A stretch of 9,627 nt of DNA from an uncultured archaeon (GTDB lineage: Archaea; Iainarchaeota; Iainarchaeia; Iainarchaeales; 0-14-0-20-30-16), in the NCBI GenBank assembly GCA_964565725.1, contig CAZMGA010000011.1, positions 3,115 to 12,741 on the forward strand, given 5' to 3'. The translations under genes and the position numbers were made by a program. Shown piece by piece: positions 702-9,213 of this stretch (the first letter of the stretch is position 1; every line of letters begins with the position of its first letter). Under the pieces are notes generated by a model, which did not search any database, was not told the DNA's origin, and saw nothing but the letters and a program-made list of their open reading frames with translations.

Positions 702-1328
702 TTAAGTATATTTAGTAATTATTTTATAAAAAGTAATTCTTTCTTCTAATTTGTTTTTTCTACTTTGTAAAGTTATTATTTTCTTTTCAGAAATTTCTTT
801 TTGTAAATTATTTTTTTTAATTATTTTATCTCCTAAACTTGAGTTTTTATAAATAATTGAATTATTTATTGTTTCCAATAAATTATTTCTATAATCTTTA
901 TTATCCATGAATGTAGAAATTATTTTTTCTATACCTTTATCATTAATGTAATCTATAGGTAAATTTATTTTTTCAAAGTCTTCTTTATATTTTTTATCAA
1001 AGCTTTCTTTTATTTTGTGTTTCCAAAAAGTTTTATTTAAATATTTTTTCCTTTTTCCATTTTCTAAGAAGTTTTTGGAATCGTTTTGCATACCTATCCA
1101 ATAATCTAATTTGTCTTTTATTTTAGTATATTCTGCTTTTATAGTATTAACTTCTTTTTTAATTATGTCTTTTGAAGGATATATAAATTTTAATTCTTGA
1201 TTTTTTTCTGTTTTTATTATCCCTCCTTCTTTTAAATAATTAGATATACTTTGTTTTTCAAATTGAGTAAAAGTTCTTAATTCTTTGTATTCTTTTTCCA
1301 AATCTTCTAAAGTCATAAATAATTGCAT
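702..1328 (-). CDS. hypothetical protein, Lys-rich and helical/coiled-coil, with a possible N-terminal winged-helix-like segment
   Basis: 208-aa ORF that exactly fills the gap between two well-supported genes. I recognise no family motif. The N-terminus 'LRTFTQFEKQSISNYLKEGGIIKTEKNQELKFIY' looks loosely like a helix-turn-helix plus wing. There is no SD, and a TATA-like TTTTAAAT lies about 27 nt upstream, which fits a leaderless start (alternative Met at 1316). Confidence 0.55.
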   Translation of the reverse strand: MQLFMTLEDLEKEYKELRTFTQFEKQSISNYLKEGGIIKTEKNQELKFIYPSKDIIKKEVNTIKAEYTKIKDKLDYWIGMQNDSKNFLENGKRKKYLNKTFWKHKIKESFDKKYKEDFEKINLPIDYINDKGIEKIISTFMDNKDYRNNLLETINNSIIYKNSSLGDKIIKKNNLQKEISEKKIITLQSRKNKLEERITFYKIITKYT

Positions 1329-2234: not shown

Positions 2235-3317
2235 ATGGCAAAAAAGTCTGATGTTTTATTTGCAATATTAGTTGCAGTATTATTTTTTGGATCTACATTT
2301 TCTGTGTGGCTTTATTCTCAAAGCGACAATTCAGATGAAGGTGTTACAAAAGATATAGAAGACCCTTTAGATAATATAATGTTGAATTATTCAACTGAAA
2401 TTACTGGAAAAGTATTAGAAGTACCTATTGGAGGGGCTTATAGTTTTTTTGCCTATACTAATAATGAAAATATAGTAAATTTAGATTATGCTATTAGAGA
2501 TTTAAATGGTGTAAAAGAAGTAAATAGTAGAATTGAAGTTAGTGATGATAATACTATAGGACAATATATTTATGTTGCATATATTTTAACTGATGATTTA
2601 AATACTTTGATTTTAGATTCAAAACTAAAAGATATTAATGGTTTTTTAGATTTTTATTTATATCCTTATGTAAAAGTAGAATATAATTCTGATTTGGTTT
2701 TTTATAATCTTGACTTAAATGAGTCAAAAAATTATTCTTTGGGTGGAAATGAAATTACTTTATTAGGGGATTCTACAGTTCTTGTAGGAGATGTTTTAAA
2801 TTTTCGTATTGATGCTAATTTCTCTGGAAATGTTTTAAAAAATTATAATGCATATTTAGTAGAAAATTTAAGTTTGTATTCTCAAAAACAAACATATTTA
2901 TTAAACAAATTAAATTCAAAAGGTTATAATAAAATTATTTATGGAAATTATTTAAAGGAAGATTTTAACTTTTTAAATTTAGATTTTAACTTTTTAAAAA
3001 ACGATTCTAATACAATTTGTAAATTGTCTTTTGATAATGATATAAATGTATTATATATAGAAAATGAATTGAAAGATTATAATAGTATTGAAATGTTGAT
3101 GAATGTTGATACTTATATTTATGATTTAAATATAAATAATAAAAACTATATTATAGATAAAAATATTGAAGTTTATGAAGAAGATTTAGATTTAGGATTA
3201 ATGCCTGGTTTAAGTTATAAGAAATATAATAATGAAGATGTGAATTTAGAAATAAATTCTATATTTTCAAGAGATGAATTTATGTATGTAAATAATATAA
3301 TTTATAGAGGTAATTAA
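2235..3317 (+). CDS. hypothetical signal-anchored, probably extracellular Asn/Asp/Tyr-rich protein
   Basis: 360-aa ORF with SD GGAAGTG upstream. It has an N-terminal hydrophobic anchor (VLFAILVAVLFFGSTFSVWLY) and then a non-hydrophobic, apparently beta-rich sequence with many N-x-S/T sequons. I recognise no family motif. Confidence 0.7.
   Translation: MAKKSDVLFAILVAVLFFGSTFSVWLYSQSDNSDEGVTKDIEDPLDNIMLNYSTEITGKVLEVPIGGAYSFFAYTNNENIVNLDYAIRDLNGVKEVNSRIEVSDDNTIGQYIYVAYILTDDLNTLILDSKLKDINGFLDFYLYPYVKVEYNSDLVFYNLDLNESKNYSLGGNEITLLGDSTVLVGDVLNFRIDANFSGNVLKNYNAYLVENLSLYSQKQTYLLNKLNSKGYNKIIYGNYLKEDFNFLNLDFNFLKNDSNTICKLSFDNDINVLYIENELKDYNSIEMLMNVDTYIYDLNINNKNYIIDKNIEVYEEDLDLGLMPGLSYKKYNNEDVNLEINSIFSRDEFMYVNNIIYRGN
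2961..2998 (+). repeat. in-frame 21-nt-period tandem duplication inside the 360-aa gene
   Basis: GATTTTAACTTTTTAAA occurs at 2961-2977 and again at 2982-2998. It encodes DFNFLNL/DFNFLKN. Confidence 0.8.
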
Positions 3318-3652: not shown

Positions 3653-4642
3653 TTAAGATAATCTTTGATATCTATAAATAAATTCATCTATTGTTAAAAT
3701 ACTATTTTCTAGAGCTAATTTTTCACCTATTTTTATACCTTCAATATATTTATCTCCTAATTTCTTTCCATTAAGAGTATAATCTATAGACTTCCCAGAC
3801 AATTTATATTCTATATATGTAGATAATGCTTGAACAAATGTTTCGTTTTCAGATAGTTTAATATATTTTGGTTTTGTTTCTAATGTTCTGTGAATATATT
3901 CGTGTATAATCGTGGATTTATCATTTAAGAATAAATATATTTTATTAAAATGAAATAATCCATATTCTTTTGTTTTAAATAAAGAAATTAAATTTTCAAG
4001 AGAAAATTTTGAATTTATAGATTGTATTCTTTGTAATAATTGTATGGGATTTTCTTCAAAATAGAATCGATCTACAAAAAATAAATTAAATGGATCTTTT
4101 ATTTTTCTTATAACTAAATCTAAATTTACATTGTTAAAAAACCCCATTTTTATTAGAATACTGTCTGCCTCTATACATGTTGATTTTGCAAAATCATAAT
4201 CTATTTTAAATATCTCGTTAATTTTTTGATACTCTTCAGGAGTAAGTTTTTTTCTTATTTTTTCTAATTGTAATCTTATTTCTTTTAATAATTTATTATG
4301 TAATAATTTATCAAAATTTGTAGATAAATTCTCTAAAATCTTTTTGTATTGTTTTAAGTTTTTAATATTTTTTGTTATTTCATATAATATTCTTTTTTTA
4401 TTTTTTTCAATAATCTTTAATATTTTTATAGGATCTGTGTCTATATTAATTTCTTTTAATACTTGCGCAATTGTTGTTTTTATTTTATATGTTAATAATA
4501 TTTTTAATGTTATGTGATCGGTTGTTACTATGTTTTTTTTAGTTAACATTTCTTTTGATTTTTTAATTCTTTCAAGATGTTCCTCTTTATGTTTTTTAAT
4601 ATATTCTGGAGTAAATCTTGATTTTTGTTTTGGTTTAAACAT
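3653..4642 (-). CDS. hypothetical protein with a C-terminal HExxH (MA-clan-like) zinc-metallopeptidase motif and a long basic helical N-terminal region
   Basis: 329-aa ORF. Its ATG (4640-4642) directly abuts the TAG of the upstream gene (TAGATG). 'IIHEYIHRT' (HEYIH encoded at 3890-3904, checked on the DNA) is followed by 'LSENETFVQALSTYIEY', which resembles the downstream Glu/helix block of gluzincin or 'peptidase MA-like' domains. Residues 1-160 are Lys-rich and helical. Confidence 0.65.
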   Translation of the reverse strand: MFKPKQKSRFTPEYIKKHKEEHLERIKKSKEMLTKKNIVTTDHITLKILLTYKIKTTIAQVLKEINIDTDPIKILKIIEKNKKRILYEITKNIKNLKQYKKILENLSTNFDKLLHNKLLKEIRLQLEKIRKKLTPEEYQKINEIFKIDYDFAKSTCIEADSILIKMGFFNNVNLDLVIRKIKDPFNLFFVDRFYFEENPIQLLQRIQSINSKFSLENLISLFKTKEYGLFHFNKIYLFLNDKSTIIHEYIHRTLETKPKYIKLSENETFVQALSTYIEYKLSGKSIDYTLNGKKLGDKYIEGIKIGEKLALENSILTIDEFIYRYQRLS

Positions 4643-5074
4643 CTAATCACTATAAATACTTTCAATTGCTTTATTAAATATTATTAGTAAAATATATATT
4701 TCATCTTCTGTTAAAGATATTTGAATTGAATTTAAAGTGTTGTCTTTTCCTTGTTGGTTTATTTTTATAATATATCCAAAATTATTTTTAGATATTTTTA
4801 AAACAGCATTTTTTACTACTGTTTCATTAATAGATTTGTTAGGATCATGAAATAATTGTAATTCATTTTTTTGTTCTTTAAAAGTAATGCAAATTTTTGC
4901 ACAATCTTGTGCACTTAATTTAAATATTTGTTTATTTGCCCAATCAAATTTCTTTTCTTCTATTTGTTTTGCAAATTCTAAAAATAAACTTTTCTTTTCT
5001 TTATTGAAATCTACGCTTAATGCAGAACCTGTTTTAGAATTATTTGGTTTATAAATTACATAATTATTTTTCAT
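4643..5074 (-). CDS. Whirly-like (Whirly/PUR-alpha-fold) single-stranded nucleic-acid-binding protein
   Basis: I prefer the ATG at 5072-5074, preceded by an SD-like AGTGA with a 5-nt spacer. The ORF track instead starts at the GTG at 5083, which overlaps the upstream TAG by 1 nt. Blocks 'YKPNNSKTGSALSV', 'FLEFAKQ...KKFDWANKQIFKLSAQDCAKI', 'LQLFHDPNK', 'VLKISKNNFGYIIKINQ' and 'ISLTEDEIYILLIIFNKAI' are colinear with the conserved blocks of plant Whirly proteins as I remember them. Confidence 0.6.
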   Translation of the reverse strand: MKNNYVIYKPNNSKTGSALSVDFNKEKKSLFLEFAKQIEEKKFDWANKQIFKLSAQDCAKICITFKEQKNELQLFHDPNKSINETVVKNAVLKISKNNFGYIIKINQQGKDNTLNSIQISLTEDEIYILLIIFNKAIESIYSD

Positions 5075-5082
5075 ATTTGTCA

Positions 5083-5520
5083 CTAAATCATATTATTTTT
5101 TAACTTTAATTTTTTAACCATTAATTCTGGATTATCAATTTCTTTGATTACATTATATTTTGGTATAATTTGAAAATATATGTGTTCGTCTTTTTTTGTT
5201 TTGTGTATTACTTCAAAGCTTTCTGGGCTAAAACTAATTTTTAATAATTTAATTGCTCTTTTTATTAATAACATCATATCTTTGTCTTCATCTTTATTTA
5301 ATTCTGTTATATCTGTAATGTGTCTTTTTGGAGCTACCAATAAATGACCATAACTTAAAGGATTTTTTTTTGCAATTATATAAGCTGTATTTCCTACATG
5401 AATTATTAATTTTTGTTTTTCAGTATAATTACAAAAGTAGCAATTTGTTTTTTTATTTTCTTTATTTTTATTTTTCTTTTCATTCAAACTTTGTAATTGT
5501 GCATAAATTATTTTTGCCAT
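5083..5520 (-). CDS. HIT (histidine triad) superfamily protein with a non-canonical HxYxQ motif
   Basis: SD AGGAGAT (5524-5530) lies in the 12-nt gap after the endA stop. 'CYFCN', '...NTAYIIAKKNPLSYGHLLVAPKRHITDITELNKDE' and '...EHIYFQIIPKY' follow the HIT-family layout (CxxC, GH-hhV-PK-H, then the triad strand). The triad reads H-I-Y-F-Q-I-I instead of H-h-H-h-H-h-h (encoded at 5164-5184, checked on the DNA). Confidence 0.8.
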   Translation of the reverse strand: MAKIIYAQLQSLNEKKNKNKENKKTNCYFCNYTEKQKLIIHVGNTAYIIAKKNPLSYGHLLVAPKRHITDITELNKDEDKDMMLLIKRAIKLLKISFSPESFEVIHKTKKDEHIYFQIIPKYNVIKEIDNPELMVKKLKLKNNMI

Positions 5521-5532
5521 AATATCTCCTTT

Positions 5533-6051
5533 TTATAATTTAATTCTATTCATTTTGTAATATGTAATATTTAAGTCATTATCAATCATAGCAAGAATTA
5601 AATTTGTGTTTAATCCTTGGGCCATTCTTATACTTTTAGAAAAAAAGTTTGGTTTAATACTCTTATTCTCATCAACAATTGATATAACATATTTAGTATG
5701 TGCTTCATCAATTTTTTTACCTAAAGGATAAACCCTAAAATCAAATCCAAATTTTAAACCAGTTTTAATAATATAGCCTAAAGATTTTATATCTTTATAC
5801 ACTAAATAGTTATTAAAAAAGAATTTATTGTTTTTTATTTGTTTTTTTATATATTCTTCTGTGCTTATAGGTTTATTTCTATGAATCAAATCTAATCTAT
5901 TATTTTCTAATAAATATAATGTTTCATAAATGTCTAAAATCAAATAATTTTTGTTTTTTATACCATATCCTTTAGATATTAATAAAGAGGAATAATTAAG
6001 ATTAGTTATTATTGTAGAATTGTTTTTTAACTCTCCTAAGTATTTTTTCAT
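5533..6051 (-). CDS. endA: tRNA-splicing (intron) endonuclease, short homotetramer-like form
   Basis: The 172-aa product aligns without gaps over its C-terminal half to Methanocaldococcus jannaschii EndA as I recall it: 'YLVYKDIKSLGYIIKTGLKFGFDFRVYPLGKKIDEAHTKYVISIV...IRMAQGLNTNLILAMIDNDLNITYYKM' against '[45 protein letters not shown]...VRVAHSVRKKLLIAIVDADGDIVYYNM'. The N-terminal domain is also colinear. Confidence 0.9.
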   Translation of the reverse strand: MKKYLGELKNNSTIITNLNYSSLLISKGYGIKNKNYLILDIYETLYLLENNRLDLIHRNKPISTEEYIKKQIKNNKFFFNNYLVYKDIKSLGYIIKTGLKFGFDFRVYPLGKKIDEAHTKYVISIVDENKSIKPNFFSKSIRMAQGLNTNLILAMIDNDLNITYYKMNRIKL

Positions 6052-6140: not shown

Positions 6141-7181
6141 ATGGTAAGTTGGTACGATTTAACAAAAAAACATTTTAAAACATTAGAATCTAGTAATACT
6201 ATATCTAAAATAATTCCTATTTTAAAGAAGGAAAAAGAAGTATTAATAGTAGATAATGGCAAATATAAAGGTATAATTTTGAGAAAAGATGTATTGAAAC
6301 AAGACCTTTTATTGTCTGAAACAAAAATATCTAATTATATTTATAAACCACCAATTTTAGAAAAAAAACATTCTAATTTGGATGTTGCAAAATTTTTTAT
6401 CGAAAGTGGGGCAATATTTTTACCTGTAATTGAGTCTAGTAAAGTAGAATCTATACTTTACAGAGCAGATTTCTTAAATTTTATTGTTTGTGAAGATTTA
6501 AAAAAAGTTAAAGTTTTAGATTTAATGAATATTAACCCAAAAGTAATTTCTCCAGACTATAATTTAGCAAAAGTAATATCTGTATTTCAAGAAAACAATT
6601 TGTCTAAGTTAGTAGTTTATGATAAAAAAATTTTAGGTGTTATTACATTATCAACAATATTAAATTATTTTATGAATACAGATAAATTAACTAAAACTGT
6701 ATTACAAAATACTTTAGTAAAACAAGTTATGAAAGAACCAATTATTATAAATAAAAATGCATCTATATCTGAATTAATGGATTTTTTTATAAACAAAAAT
6801 GTATCTTCAATAATTGTTGCTAATAATAATGATTTATTAGGAATAGTAACAAAAACAAATATTTTAGAATATTATATTTATAAAAATAGTAAGGACTCTA
6901 AAAACTCAGTTATGCAAATATCTGCAAAATTTTCAGGTTTAGATAAAAAAGATATTGAAGATAGATTTGAAGCATTACAGAAATATATTGATAAGGATTC
7001 TAAGATTTTTGTTTATTTTAAATTAGGTAAAGAAAAATTTAGAGGTTTGCCTTTAGTAAATTGTAGAGTGCGAGTTTTATTGCCTAAGAAAAATTTTAAT
7101 GTTTCTGTTGAAAGTTGGGGTATTGAACATTCAATTGAATTAGCAATACAAAAACTAAAAAGAATGATGGGTAATTTTTAA
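6141..7181 (+). CDS. four-CBS-domain (two Bateman modules) protein with a C-terminal HPF/RaiA (S30AE)-like domain
   Basis: Four CBS repeats are recognisable, for example '...KVISPDYNLAKVISVFQENNLSKLVVYDKKILGVITLSTILNYF' and 'VMKEPIIINKNASISELMDFFINKNVSSIIVANNNDLLGIVTKTNILEYY'. The last ~89 aa (6912-7178) read 'MQISAKFSGLDKKDIEDRFEALQKYIDKDSKIFVYFKLGKEK...VNCRVRVLLPKKNFNVSVESWGIEHSIELAIQKLKRMM'. This parallels the beta-alpha-beta-beta-beta-alpha pattern of bacterial HPF/YfiA. The CBS call is confident and the HPF-like call is tentative. Confidence 0.85.
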   Translation: MVSWYDLTKKHFKTLESSNTISKIIPILKKEKEVLIVDNGKYKGIILRKDVLKQDLLLSETKISNYIYKPPILEKKHSNLDVAKFFIESGAIFLPVIESSKVESILYRADFLNFIVCEDLKKVKVLDLMNINPKVISPDYNLAKVISVFQENNLSKLVVYDKKILGVITLSTILNYFMNTDKLTKTVLQNTLVKQVMKEPIIINKNASISELMDFFINKNVSSIIVANNNDLLGIVTKTNILEYYIYKNSKDSKNSVMQISAKFSGLDKKDIEDRFEALQKYIDKDSKIFVYFKLGKEKFRGLPLVNCRVRVLLPKKNFNVSVESWGIEHSIELAIQKLKRMMGNF

Positions 7182-7207
7182 GCCTTAATATAAGGCTTAT
7201 TTTTTTT
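7179..7207. terminator. stem-loop plus T8 tract between convergent genes
   Basis: TAAGCCTTA (7179-7187) and TAAGGCTTA (7191-7199) are exact reverse complements around the loop ATA. Eight T (7200-7207) follow on the plus strand. The stem begins in the CBS gene stop codon, and the T-run overlaps the stop of the minus-strand gene (7206-7208). An oligo-T tract is the established archaeal termination signal. Confidence 0.55.
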
Positions 7208-7730
7208 ATTTTAATCTCATTAAAATATCTCTTTGATTTTCTAAAATATCTTGCATTATTTTTCTTAAAACTTCTATTTTTGCATCAATATTATCTAATT
7301 TATTATCTATATTTTTATGGCTTGAATCCAAATTTAAATTCATTTTTTCAATATCTTTTAAATTATCATTATTAGACATTTTTATTATTGATTCATTTAA
7401 ATCATTTATTTTGGTTTCTACATTTCTTACTACTTTTTCATGATCATTTATTTTATCTGTAGCCATCTCGGCTACATTCATTGCTAAATTACTTGCTAAT
7501 TTTGCCTCATCTGCATTTATTTTTGTTTTTTCTTCTGGGCTTAAATTTTGTATATCTTCTTCTGGTTTTTCTTTTTCAGAATTATCTGGTTTTTCATTTA
7601 CGTTTTGTTTTAATGCTTCATTTATTATGTCTTCATCAAAACCAATATCTTTTAACATGCTTTTAATTTCTTCATTACTTAAACCTGAGTTTCTTAAATT
7701 AGCAATTGTTTCTAACACACTATTGTCCAT
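7206..7730 (-). CDS. hypothetical protein: N-terminal UBA-like helical domain, acidic linker, C-terminal coiled coil
   Basis: 174-aa ORF. 'LETIANLRNSGLSNEEIKSMLKDIGFDEDIINEALKQ' resembles a UBA/TS-N-type three-helix module. It is followed by an E/K/P-rich linker and about 90 aa with heptad-like repeats. TTAAGGGATA sits 3 nt upstream of the ATG. Confidence 0.65.
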   Translation of the reverse strand: MDNSVLETIANLRNSGLSNEEIKSMLKDIGFDEDIINEALKQNVNEKPDNSEKEKPEEDIQNLSPEEKTKINADEAKLASNLAMNVAEMATDKINDHEKVVRNVETKINDLNESIIKMSNNDNLKDIEKMNLNLDSSHKNIDNKLDNIDAKIEVLRKIMQDILENQRDILMRLK

Positions 7731-7797: not shown

Positions 7798-9213
7798 ATG
7801 GATTATCCGTATGGCCCTTGGAAAGAATTATTTGTTGGAATTTATGATGATTATAGTCTTAGACTTTTATTTAATCAAGATGGGTTAATAATTTCTGAAA
7901 TTTTAAATAAAGATAAAACTAAAGCTGTATTATCATTAACTCAAATTATGGGTGTTTTTGGAGATTCCGAAGCATTTATAGAATCAATATCTAAAAGTGC
8001 AATATATTTAAATATTCATGACAATTCAAACTCTAAATATCTTTTATTGCAAAGTAATCAAGAAATTTTAAATTATAATGTTAAAGACGTAAATGACTTT
8101 TTAAATTATCAATACAAAGATTTAATGAGAGACTTGAGAAATTTACAAAATATTTCCGAATCTTACGAAATAAATGTTAAATTATATAATGAATTGCCAA
8201 ATGATTTAAAAACAAAAATATTTTCTAACCCTTTAAATTTATTTTCATTTATAACTAAACCTAAAGTTACAAGTTCACAAAAAGTAAAAGAAGAAATAAA
8301 TAAAACTTTATTTTTAGGTTTTTATAGAAATAATGATGAAAAAGTAATAGAAAAAATAGAACAATTTTCAAATACTTTAATAATAGGTAATAATAAATTA
8401 ATATTTAAAACAATGATTGAAAATTTTTCAATTAATGGTATTAATACTGTTGTTTTTTCAGATTCTAAAGATATTATAAATATGAAATATCCTAATGAAG
8501 ATAAAAATATTTCTAATAAAAATATAACACCTATAGGCTTTCCGCTAAAAGAAAAAATTATTGGCGAGGACATTTATGTAAATTTATCTGAATTACCTTT
8601 AAATAGTTTTTTAGAATTAAATAATATTGACGATTCAAATGTAGCGGATTTGATTAATGATATTATTTCAAATAAAAAACCAAAAACACTAGATAATTTA
8701 ATTAAAGAATTAGATGAATTTAAATATAATGATAAATATAATTTTTATGATGTACATTTAACTATTAGAATTTTAAATATTATAAAACAAAAAAATCCAG
8801 GAATTTATTTAGGAGATAGTTCAGTTTCCAATTTAAATAAAGATAACAACAATTTAGGTACTATAAATTTTATTAAATTAAATAAATTAGACACTGATAA
8901 AATAATAATTTATAACATAATTAAAAAGATTGTGAATAATATAGATGATAGACCCGTAGCAATTTTTGTAGAAAATTTGCAAGATTACTTTAATAATGAA
9001 AATGATAATATAACTAAAGATTTTTATAATTTGTTTAACAAAAAAACTCAAAATTATTTTATTTTTAGTGTTTTAACTGAAATTGATTTGCCTAAAGAAT
9101 TTAGTAGTAATTTTTCTGCAAAGTTATCTTCAGTTGATGATTTAGATATAGGCTTAAATTTAAAAGATTCTAAACCTTTTAGATTTATTTTAAGACCTAC
9201 TTTATCAAAGTGA
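7798..9213 (+). CDS. HerA/FtsK-clade (DUF87-like) P-loop NTPase homologue with deviant Walker A and B motifs
   Basis: The 471-aa ORF follows the layout of archaeal DUF87/HerA ATPases. 'LFLGFYRNNDEKVIEKIEQFSNTLIIGNNKLIFKTMIENFSINGINTVVFSDSKD' sits where 'lG....v.l....l.rH.lI.G.TGSGKS.....l.e.....g..vlifD..gEy' would be. 'PVAIFVENLQDYF' corresponds to 'p.llviDEAH.f', 'YFIFSVLTEIDLP' to 'l.lvTQrPsdl', and the terminal 'FRFILRPT' to 'v.vrpR.T'. Stop TGA at 9211-9213. Confidence 0.55.
   Translation: MDYPYGPWKELFVGIYDDYSLRLLFNQDGLIISEILNKDKTKAVLSLTQIMGVFGDSEAFIESISKSAIYLNIHDNSNSKYLLLQSNQEILNYNVKDVNDFLNYQYKDLMRDLRNLQNISESYEINVKLYNELPNDLKTKIFSNPLNLFSFITKPKVTSSQKVKEEINKTLFLGFYRNNDEKVIEKIEQFSNTLIIGNNKLIFKTMIENFSINGINTVVFSDSKDIINMKYPNEDKNISNKNITPIGFPLKEKIIGEDIYVNLSELPLNSFLELNNIDDSNVADLINDIISNKKPKTLDNLIKELDEFKYNDKYNFYDVHLTIRILNIIKQKNPGIYLGDSSVSNLNKDNNNLGTINFIKLNKLDTDKIIIYNIIKKIVNNIDDRPVAIFVENLQDYFNNENDNITKDFYNLFNKKTQNYFIFSVLTEIDLPKEFSSNFSAKLSSVDDLDIGLNLKDSKPFRFILRPTLSK

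What the first reader, a model, noticed from the sequence alone, without database searches (positions are those of the whole stretch)
4643..5083. Whirly-family-like single-stranded nucleic-acid binder in an archaeal genome
The ~143-146-aa product matches the conserved Whirly blocks in order. Plant sequences below are quoted from memory.
- 'YKPNNSKTGSALSV' vs 'YKGKAALSV/TV'
- 'FLEFAKQIEEKKFDWANKQIFKLSAQDCAKI' vs 'LLQFAPSAGVRQYDWSRKQVFSLSVTEIGTL'
- 'LQLFHDPNK' vs 'CEFFHDPFKG'
- 'VKNAVLKISKNNFGYIIKINQ' vs 'VRKVLKVEPLPDGSGHFFNLSV'
- 'IQISLTEDEIYILLIIFNKAI' vs 'IYIPITKAEFAVLISAFNFVL'
The segment that separates the first two blocks in plant proteins is missing, so this would be a minimal version. 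Whirly proteins are known as plant nuclear/organellar ssDNA-binding genome-stability factors. The same fold occurs in kinetoplastid MRP1/2 guide-RNA-binding proteins and in PUR-alpha. An archaeal member, translationally coupled to neighbours in an operon that begins with the tRNA-splicing endonuclease, is unexpected and has no described function that I know of.
Basis: partly seen in the sequence, partly recalled or inferred. Interest (0 to 1): 0.75.

Follow-up and report, generated by a model that had tools for sequence, protein, structure and literature searches.

The report
Whirly ssDNA-binding protein in DPANN archaeon

Summary
The ORF at 4643-5083 (minus strand) is real; the likely start is the ATG at 5074, giving 143 aa. 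It is a true Whirly-family member. It scores 54.2 bits on Pfam PF08536 (cutoff 23, E 1.8e-14) and matches plant Whirly crystal-structure sequences at E 8e-9. A confident AF2 model (pLDDT 89.6) has the beta4-alpha-beta4-alpha topology. Its best PDB fold matches are plant Whirly (TM 0.76), then MRP1/2, then Pur-alpha.

Named relatives are all DPANN archaea (Iainarchaeota, also called Diapherotrites, and Micrarchaeota). An exhaustive profile search finds 452 clusters at 50% identity, including members on phage-like contigs inside replication/recombination modules.

The DPANN branch is a minimal form. It lacks the ~17-residue segment of plant proteins. A 5-residue insertion splits the KGKAAL block, so no lysine aligns with its second Lys.

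The EndA-HIT-Whirly gene order holds in only one Iainarchaeota clade. One Micrarchaeota clade has RecJ-like DHH-EndoIII-Whirly with RadA nearby. Whirly is the best-conserved gene in its neighbourhood apart from RadA.

Most likely it is a tetrameric single-stranded nucleic-acid binder acting in genome maintenance. That function is inferred, not shown. It is a new member of a known kind, of moderate interest.

The parts
4643..5074 (-). Whirly-family CDS: 143 aa from the ATG at 5074, with the stop codon at 4643-4645. A GTG at 5083 would give 146 aa and overlap the HIT stop by 1 nt. Residue numbers in this report count from the GTG.
   Evidence: ORF. Homologues and the identical database protein P0001 (143 aa) start at the ATG. 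Pfam PF08536 E 1.8e-14.
4877..5065 (-). First beta4-alpha repeat (residues 7-69): strands 7-12, 20-27, 32-42, 52-56 and helix 58-69.
   Evidence: AF2 model, pLDDT 89.6, DSSP elements.
4649..4864 (-). Second beta4-alpha repeat (residues 74-145): strands 74-79, 90-99, 103-112, 117-125 and the hydrophobic C-terminal helix 126-145 (EDEIYILLIIFNKAIESIYS), the presumed oligomerisation helix.
   Evidence: AF2 model. Sequence per element. The oligomerisation role is inferred from plant Whirly tetramers.
5018..5053 (-). Degenerate KGKAAL block, YKPNNSKTGSAL (residues 11-22), with a 5-residue loop insertion.
   Evidence: Bridging alignment A3. Y11, K12, N14, G19 and A21 are invariant in the close family.
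4940..4948 (-). FDW motif (residues 46-48), equivalent to plant YDW. D47 and W48 are nearly invariant in the 51-sequence alignment and invariant in the bridging alignment with plant sequences.
4841..4852 (-). FHDP motif (residues 78-81), equivalent to plant FFHDP. H79 is the only fully invariant column across 51 diverse family members.
5083..5520 (-). Upstream neighbour (context, not part of the protein): HIT-family hydrolase, with its best Pfam hit to CwfJ_C_1. A GGAG Shine-Dalgarno-like sequence precedes its ATG.
   Evidence: Pfam. NCBIfam. Sequence.
5533..6051 (-). First gene of the same-strand cluster (context): 172-aa tRNA-intron endonuclease EndA.
   Evidence: Pfam tRNA_int_endo and tRNA_int_endo_N. 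TIGR00324 endA at 103 bits against a cutoff of 59.6.
3653..4642 (-). Downstream neighbour (context): 329-aa lineage-restricted ORFan whose ATG abuts the Whirly stop codon. It occupies a variable slot.
   Evidence: No family hits. Only 4 close relatives. Not detected in any of L007-L017. HicA and a partner gene occupy the slot in L024.

Best explanation
The gene encodes a bona fide but minimal Whirly-family protein of an Iainarchaeota (Diapherotrites, DPANN) archaeon. Shown: family membership by profile and sequence; a confident predicted beta4-alpha-beta4-alpha fold closest to plant Whirly; strong purifying selection; and a wide uncharacterised family in DPANN archaea and uncultivated phages. 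Inferred: like the characterised Whirly proteins, it assembles through its hydrophobic C-terminal helix into a homotetramer. [quoted passage not shown] In the cell it most likely acts as an accessory, non-OB-fold ssDNA-binding protein in genome maintenance. It would coat or protect ssDNA intermediates of repair, recombination or replication, alongside rather than instead of canonical SSB/RPA. No lysine aligns with the second Lys of KGKAAL, so plant-style 24-mer cooperative assembly is not expected. The position behind EndA and HIT reflects clade-level synteny in a tightly packed genome, not a dedicated tRNA-splicing role.
For: Family and fold: Pfam PF08536 at 54.2 bits against 23; PDB sequence hits are exclusively plant Whirly at E 8e-9 to 9e-7; the profile version reaches E 1e-10. 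The AF2 model has pLDDT 89.6 and pTM 0.84 with two beta4-alpha repeats. Foldseek gives 1l3a at E 5e-9 and TM 0.76, MRP1/2 at TM 0.64-0.72, and Pur-alpha at about 0.4.

Conserved core: Y11, A21, F34, D47, W48, K51, H79 and E128 are conserved across 51 divergent members and shared with plant proteins. The proteins are basic, with pI 8.7-9.1 in most DPANN members checked and net charge +3 to +4.

Constraint: Whirly is 79-83% identical where syntenic neighbours are 43-60%. It is 63% identical where neighbours are 29-59%, and in Micrarchaeota 76% where neighbours are 62-68% and RadA is 84%.

DNA-metabolism context elsewhere in the family: DHH/DHHA1 (RecJ-like), HhH-GPD/EndoIII, then Whirly, with RadA 1-3 kb away, in five Micrarchaeota loci. 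gyrA/gyrB lie nearby in another relative. Phage-like contigs place it among UvsX-like recombinase, PolA, DnaG-type primase, SSB and a processivity factor.

Mechanism by analogy: WHY2 binds ssDNA without sequence specificity between the sheets of adjacent protomers in the tetramer (review). K67 is needed for 24-mer formation and cooperative binding.
Against: No binding, oligomerisation or expression data exist for any prokaryotic member. In the window's own clade the neighbours are RNA- or nucleotide-related (EndA, HIT), not DNA-repair genes. Each gene context is conserved only within a clade, so guilt by association is weak in either direction. Two distant members sit in a glycosyltransferase-rich context. 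Whirly-fold proteins also bind RNA: MRP1/2 bind guide RNA, and plant reviews describe WHIRLY proteins as binding RNA as well as ssDNA. The N-terminal block falls outside all HMMER local alignments.
Confidence: 0.6

Rival explanations
1. It is an RNA-binding cofactor of RNA processing. It would be co-expressed with the tRNA-splicing endonuclease EndA and a CwfJ-like HIT hydrolase, binding pre-tRNA, excised introns or other single-stranded RNA, much as MRP1/2 bind guide RNA.
For: EndA-HIT-Whirly are co-directional with spacers of 12 nt and 8 nt or less. The order is kept in relatives down to 63% Whirly identity. The HIT protein's best Pfam hit is CwfJ_C_1; from general knowledge, that domain comes from splicing or debranching-associated eukaryotic proteins. 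The fold also matches the RNA-binding MRP1/2 at TM ~0.7. Plant reviews state that WHIRLY proteins bind RNA as well as ssDNA.
Against: The whole ~10-kb region is collinear in those relatives (CBS, the 174-aa and 471-aa genes, NAC, the 360-aa gene, SIMPL), so the adjacency is not specific. No EndA or HIT lies within ±6 kb of the gene in eight more distant DPANN loci, nor near it in P0186, L026 or L028. Tight spacing is genome-wide here; for example, NAC starts 2 nt after the preceding gene ends. There is no tRNA or Rfam RNA gene in the window.
Confidence: 0.15
2. It is an abundant architectural nucleoid or chromatin protein, or a transcription regulator, acting on duplex or melted DNA genome-wide. 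This is the role proposed for plant WHIRLY1 in plastid nucleoids and originally for PBF-2 as a transcription factor.
For: It is very highly conserved relative to its neighbours, small and basic, and sits in varied genomic contexts, as housekeeping nucleoid proteins do. The plant literature describes WHIRLY1 as a nucleoid-compacting protein.
Against: In plants, compaction and cooperative binding depend on 24-mer assembly through the second Lys of KGKAAL, and no lysine occupies that position here. No abundance data exist. Phage members lie in replication/recombination modules rather than regulatory ones.
Confidence: 0.15
3. It is a mobile-element-derived or defence-related single-stranded nucleic-acid sensor, by analogy with the sPC4/Whirly-fold sensor domains of Shedu and Menshen, sitting beside a variable slot.
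For: sPC4/Whirly-fold domains act as proposed infection sensors in bacterial defence systems. Family members occur on phage contigs. The slot immediately downstream varies and holds a HicA toxin gene and a partner in L024. A HIT-family PADLOC model (ThsC) weakly matches the upstream gene.
Against: There is no PADLOC hit for the Whirly protein or the 329-aa gene. It is a stand-alone protein with no effector fusion. It lies in a housekeeping chromosomal region of uniform ~20% GC. It is vertically conserved across two DPANN phyla with shared indels, at a conservation level atypical of defence genes.
Confidence: 0.05

Closest known systems
Plant Whirly proteins (StWHY1/p24 of PBF-2, StWHY2, AtWHY1-3; Pfam PF08536; PDB 1l3a, 3n1h, 4koo, 4kop, 4koq)
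   Same: Significant sequence homology over ~110 residues at about 24-27% identity. Same beta4-alpha-beta4-alpha fold (TM 0.73-0.76). Shared (F/Y)DW..K, FHDP and (A/D)E(F/Y) core motifs. Similar domain size, basic charge and a hydrophobic C-terminal helix.
   Different: No organelle transit peptide or C-terminal extension. About 17 residues shorter between the first strands. A 5-residue insertion inside the KGKAAL block, with no lysine aligned to the second Lys that drives 24-mer assembly. Archaeal host. Function untested.
KGKAAL-type short Whirly proteins on uncultivated phage contigs (P0168, P0195/P0138; UniProt A0A6J5NR37 'Whirly transcription factor [uncultured Caudovirales phage]')
   Same: Same Pfam family. 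Single-domain proteins of 141-152 aa with no targeting peptide.
   Different: They keep an intact YKGKAAL motif and the extra segment. They are much closer to plant Whirly (Pfam 85-101 bits; AtWHY2 E 3e-20 over the full length) than the window protein is (54 bits; AtWHY2 E 7e-7). They sit beside UvsX-like recombinase, PolA, primase and SSB.
Kinetoplastid MRP1/MRP2 guide-RNA-binding proteins (PDB 2gia, 2gje, 2gid)
   Same: Same Whirly-type fold (TM 0.64-0.72, Foldseek E 1e-6 to 5e-5) and similar length.
   Different: Only 10-15% identity and no detectable sequence homology. MRP1/2 form a heterotetramer that binds RNA in mitochondrial RNA editing.
Pur-alpha / PC4-like type I domains
   Same: Built from beta-beta-beta-beta-alpha repeats that bind single-stranded nucleic acids.
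   Different: Weak structural match (TM ~0.4, E ~1e-3) and no Pfam PurA hit. Different repeat packing and oligomer.
Canonical OB-fold SSB/RPA of archaea
   Same: The presumed cellular job: binding and protecting ssDNA.
   Different: Unrelated fold, with no OB-fold or SSB Pfam hit. A canonical SSB is reported in Ca. Micrarchaeum ARMAN-2, so Whirly is not shown to be a replacement.

Membership tests
Whirly family (Pfam PF08536) | Significant match to the family profile above the curated gathering threshold | tested here: met
   54.2 bits against 23, E 1.8e-14; residues 30-132 align to profile positions 30-133 of 136. All close homologues carry precomputed PF08536 hits.
Whirly family (Pfam PF08536) | Whirly fold: two beta-beta-beta-beta-alpha repeats | tested here: met
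Whirly family (Pfam PF08536) | Conserved core motifs (Y/F)DW..K, F(F)HDP, and the Glu at the start of the last helix | tested here: met
   FDW at 46-48, K51, FHDP at 78-81 and E128 align with the plant residues. H79 is invariant and D47, W48, K51 and E128 are at least 90% conserved in the 51-sequence alignment.
Plant Whirly proteins (WHY1/2/3) | Intact KGKAAL motif, including the second lysine (StWHY2 K67) needed for 24-mer assembly and cooperative ssDNA binding | tested here: not met
   The window has YKPNNSKTGSAL. The bridging alignment puts a 5-residue insertion inside the motif and no Lys at the K67-equivalent position. The role of K67 comes from PMC3245945.
Plant Whirly proteins (WHY1/2/3) | N-terminal organelle-targeting peptide and nuclear-encoded organellar localisation | tested here: not met
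   The protein starts 3-6 residues before the first strand, and the host is an archaeon.
Whirly family (Pfam PF08536) | Homotetramer ('whirligig') formed through the C-terminal helices | not testable with these tools
The only indirect support is the strongly hydrophobic helix at 126-145.
Whirly family (Pfam PF08536) | Preferential, sequence-independent binding of single-stranded DNA (and RNA) | not testable with these tools
   This needs EMSA or anisotropy with recombinant protein. Only homology, charge and gene context bear on it.
MRP1/MRP2 (kinetoplastid gRNA-binding) | Sequence membership in the MRP family and heterotetramer formation | tested here: not met
   No Pfam or PDB sequence hit to MRP. 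Fold similarity only, at 10-15% identity. A single gene copy lies in the locus.
Pur-alpha (PUR repeats) | Match to the PUR repeat profile and a PUR-type repeat arrangement | tested here: not met
   No Pfam PurA hit at E <= 1. Foldseek TM is ~0.4 at E ~1e-3.
OB-fold SSB/RPA | OB-fold ssDNA-binding domain | tested here: not met
   No SSB or RPA Pfam or NCBIfam hit. The predicted fold is not an OB barrel.

The most novel reading that the evidence does not exclude
Whirly is not a plant invention. It is an ancient ssDNA-binding module carried by prokaryotes and their viruses. DPANN archaea (Iainarchaeota and Micrarchaeota) keep a minimal tetrameric version as a core, highly constrained genome-maintenance factor. 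Plant organellar Whirlies descend from a phage-borne KGKAAL-type version, acquired along with other phage-type organelle replication proteins such as Twinkle, RPOT and PolI-like POP.
Probability: 0.3. Interest if true: 0.65.

Novelty: new member of a known kind. Interest (0 to 1): 0.5.

Why it matters
Plant papers and reviews routinely describe Whirly proteins as plant-specific. This locus shows a well-conserved archaeal branch, and the follow-up shows hundreds of uncharacterised clusters in DPANN archaea and uncultivated phages.

If the inferred activity holds, DPANN archaea have a second, non-OB-fold single-stranded nucleic-acid-binding protein under strong constraint. That bears on how these reduced genomes handle repair and recombination.

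The small, tag-free archaeal and phage versions would also be convenient minimal models for Whirly biochemistry, such as tetramer against 24-mer assembly and the role of KGKAAL. The phage members that resemble plant WHY2 over their full length make the evolutionary origin of plant organellar Whirlies directly testable.

It does not by itself reveal a new mechanism.

Tried and rejected
1. Tetramer modelling.

3. A search for a universal gene partner found none. The EndA/HIT link is confined to one clade. The EndoIII/DHH/RadA link is confined to one Micrarchaeota clade. Other clades have MscL, His_Phos_1 plus a GTPase, a TrmB regulator, L35Ae plus Trm5, or gyrase nearby.

4. Whirly as a replacement for SSB. 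The literature I could read gives no support for this, since Ca. Micrarchaeum ARMAN-2 has a canonical SSB.

5. Cultured phages gave no tblastn hits in 50,697 phage records for the window protein, P0140, P0168 or P0195. PHROGs gave no hits. IMG/VR gave nothing for the DPANN subtype or for P0195 and one 136-kb viral genome for P0168. The A2 alignment was too diverse for a viral scan.

6. Naming the distant clusters failed: cluster look-ups returned only 'hypothetical protein' or nothing.

7. The 329-aa neighbour has no family hits, only four close relatives and a low-confidence model (pLDDT 56.5), so I did not run a fold search on it.

8. Residue-level ssDNA contacts of StWHY2 could not be mapped, because the two structure papers are not held.

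9. A defence-system reading was rejected: no PADLOC hit, and a housekeeping context.
Full report
**Observation.** The window is ~20% GC throughout. A 146-aa ORF runs on the minus strand at 4643-5083 from a GTG. Most homologues begin at the Met matching window residue 4, and the identical database protein P0001 is 143 aa. The real start is therefore probably the ATG at 5074. The plant blocks quoted from memory match AtWHY1/WHY3/p24 as printed in the HMMER alignments.

**Family assignment.**
- Pfam Whirly (PF08536) matches at E 1.8e-14, 54.2 bits against a gathering score of 23, covering profile positions 30-133 of 136.
- The only significant PDB sequence hits are plant Whirly proteins: 1l3a at E 8.2e-9, and WHY1/2/3 and StWHY2 at 5e-8 to 9e-7. 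A profile of 17 homologues improves this to E 1e-10.
- NCBIfam, PHROGs and PADLOC have no model that matches. This explains why sources name these proteins 'hypothetical'.

**Structure.** An AF2 model built on the 17-sequence alignment is confident (pLDDT 89.6, pTM 0.84). It has strands 7-12, 20-27, 32-42 and 52-56, helix 58-69, strands 74-79, 90-99, 103-112 and 117-125, and helix 126-145. That is two beta4-alpha repeats. Foldseek against PDB ranks all plant Whirly chains first (E 5e-9 to 1e-7, TM 0.73-0.76). Trypanosome MRP1/2 come next (TM 0.64-0.72), then Pur-alpha (TM ~0.4, E ~1e-3).

**How it differs from plant Whirly.** I built a bridging alignment with phage-like and plant sequences. 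The plant sequences were reconstructed from the HMMER output. The alignment shows that the DPANN branch carries a 5-residue insertion inside the KGKAAL block (YK-PNNSK-TGSAL). It also lacks about 17 residues that plant and phage-like proteins have before the 'LLQFAP' strand (spacing of 35 against 44 residues). No lysine aligns with the second Lys of KGKAAL. In StWHY2 that residue (K67) is needed for 24-mer assembly and cooperative ssDNA binding (PMC3245945). The family-wide core is kept: Y11, A21, F34, D47, W48, K51, H79 and E128. Most DPANN members checked are basic, with pI 8.7-9.1 and net charge +3 to +4. Which strands are structurally equivalent in the N-terminal hairpin was not resolved.

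**Organism and distribution.**
- The identical protein, in the same gene order, occurs on six assemblies from different sequencing runs.
- Named relatives are Candidatus Diapherotrites archaeon MAGs at 79-81% identity, Ca. Iainarchaeum at 46%, and Candidatus Micrarchaeota at 24-45%. NCBI files the CG08 Diapherotrites MAG under phylum Candidatus Iainarchaeota, kingdom Nanobdellati (DPANN).
- An exhaustive HMMER search of 1.84 billion cluster representatives found 452 clusters at E <= 1e-3, 56 of them at E <= 1e-10. Most are 140-175 aa.
- A rough motif classification puts about 106 of the 148 listed representatives in the window's insertion subtype and about 10 in the KGKAAL subtype.
- The species-representative genome scan returned only DPANN loci. 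Its search patterns were subtype-specific, so other lineages are not excluded.

**Gene context.** In the window the cluster is EndA (172 aa; TIGR00324 above its cutoff), a HIT hydrolase (best hit CwfJ_C_1), Whirly, and a 329-aa ORFan. All are on the minus strand, with spacers of 12 nt, 8 nt or less, and 0 nt.
- EndA-HIT-Whirly is retained in L007-L009 and L024, where Whirly identity is 63-83%. In those loci the whole region is collinear, so the adjacency is not specific.
- The 329-aa gene was not detected in any of L007-L017. In L024, HicA and a partner gene occupy its slot.
- None of the eight more distant loci has EndA or HIT within ±6 kb.
- One Micrarchaeota clade has JAB, DHH/DHHA1 (RecJ-like), HhH-GPD/EndoIII, then Whirly, with gaps of 4-62 nt between EndoIII and Whirly, and RadA 1-3 kb away.
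- Other relatives sit near gyrA/gyrB, MscL, a histidine phosphatase plus a GTPase, a TrmB regulator, or L35Ae and Trm5.

No partner is universal. The tRNA-endonuclease link is therefore not evidence of function.

**Constraint.** Whirly is the best-conserved gene in its neighbourhood apart from RadA.

| Comparison | Whirly identity | Neighbours |
|---|---|---|
| Window vs L007-L009 | 79-83% | 43-60% |
| Window vs L024 | 63% | 29-59% |
| Micrarchaeota L012 vs L026 | 76% | JAB 64%, DHH 68%, EndoIII 62%, RadA 84% |

This level fits a core nucleic-acid-handling protein with extensive interaction surfaces.

**Viral branch.** Distant members lie on phage-like contigs: genes on one strand, with many small ORFs that lack Pfam hits.
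- P0140 sits among ThyX, dCMP deaminase, ClpP and a class II RNR.
- P0168 lies between a UvsX-like recombinase and an intein-containing UDG-exo-PolA, followed by a DnaG-type primase.
- P0195 lies between an SSB and a UvsX-like recombinase, with a processivity factor nearby.
- A 136-kb IMG/VR viral genome encodes a 59%-identical relative of P0168.
- BFVD contains a UniProt entry auto-named 'Whirly transcription factor [uncultured Caudovirales phage]'.
- P0168 and P0195 keep YKGKAAL. P0168 and P0138 (the representative of P0195's cluster) score 85-101 bits on the Pfam model, and P0168 matches AtWHY2 over its full length at E 3e-20. They are much closer to plant Whirly than the DPANN branch is.
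- No deposited phage genome matched.

**Literature.** Plant papers call the family plant-specific. The review of PC4-like domains never mentions archaea. [quoted passage not shown] Papers on Shedu and Menshen discuss sPC4/Whirly-fold sensor domains at fold level only. No paper in the library links Whirly with any DPANN lineage. Ca. Micrarchaeum ARMAN-2 is reported to have a canonical SSB, so replacement of SSB is not supported.

**Interpretation.**
- Shown: a genuine, conserved, minimal Whirly-family protein in a DPANN archaeon.
- Inferred: a homotetrameric, sequence-independent single-strand binder acting as an accessory ssDNA-binding factor in genome maintenance, without plant-style 24-mer assembly.
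- Rivals: an RNA-processing cofactor with EndA and HIT; a nucleoid or transcription protein; a defence or mobile-element sensor. These are less supported but not excluded, and biochemistry is needed.

**Verdict.** This is a new member of a known kind, known to databases but unstudied. Interest is moderate at 0.5. The more interesting lead is the breadth of the prokaryotic and viral family and the plant-like phage members.

Noticed in passing
L020/L021 8001-8459; L022 8001-8438; L032 3001-3450; L018 8001-8477: Short Whirly-family genes on phage-like metagenome contigs, inside replication/recombination modules. Two of them (P0168, P0195) have an intact plant-type YKGKAAL motif. P0168 matches AtWHY2 over its full length at E 3e-20. 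This raises the possibility that plant organellar Whirlies have a phage origin.
   Followed up: partly
window 3653-4642 (-): A 329-aa, predicted all-helical ORFan whose start abuts the Whirly stop codon. It has an invariant HEYIH (HExxH) motif at residues 247-251. It has only four close relatives, no family hits and a low-confidence AF2 model (pLDDT 56.5). Its slot is variable: HicA and a partner gene occupy it in L024.
   Followed up: partly
window 7798-9213 (+), 7206-7730 (-), 2235-3317 (+), 702-1328 (-): Four further genes (471, 174, 360 and 208 aa) have no Pfam or NCBIfam assignment, yet are syntenic and 35-49% identical in related Iainarchaeota MAGs. They look like lineage-specific conserved unknowns.
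   Followed up: no
window 6141-7181 (+): A CBS-domain protein (three matched CBS stretches) whose C-terminal ~75 residues weakly resemble the S30AE/ribosome-hibernation family (PF02482, E 0.0015, below cutoff). It is divergently transcribed from EndA across an 89-nt AT-rich spacer.
   Followed up: no
L020 8973-12275 and 5193-6731: The phage-like contig encodes an 1100-aa fusion of UDG, a 3'-5' exonuclease and PolA, interrupted by an intein. An IS605-type TnpA/TnpB pair lies just upstream of the Whirly gene.
   Followed up: no
L030 6001-6444; L031 6001-6480: Two distant insertion-type family members (P0052, P0192) share a different conserved context: the last gene of a one-strand string rich in GT1/GT2 glycosyltransferases. 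The organism type is unknown. This context does not fit a DNA-repair reading.
   Followed up: partly
representatives P0049, P0118, P0130; P0032, P0035: Some family members carry N-terminal extensions. Several look like eukaryotic mitochondrial presequences on insertion-type domains, which may be protist Whirlies. Others have long Q/P/T-rich low-complexity tails fused to a DPANN-like domain.
   Followed up: no
L012 3860-8374; L026 2819-9616; also L011, L013, L015: A Micrarchaeota cluster of JAB, DHH/DHHA1 (RecJ-like), EndoIII-type glycosylase and Whirly, with RadA nearby on the opposite strand. In one sub-clade (L015, L026) a 681-aa PEGA/metallopeptidase gene lies between Whirly and RadA.
   Followed up: partly
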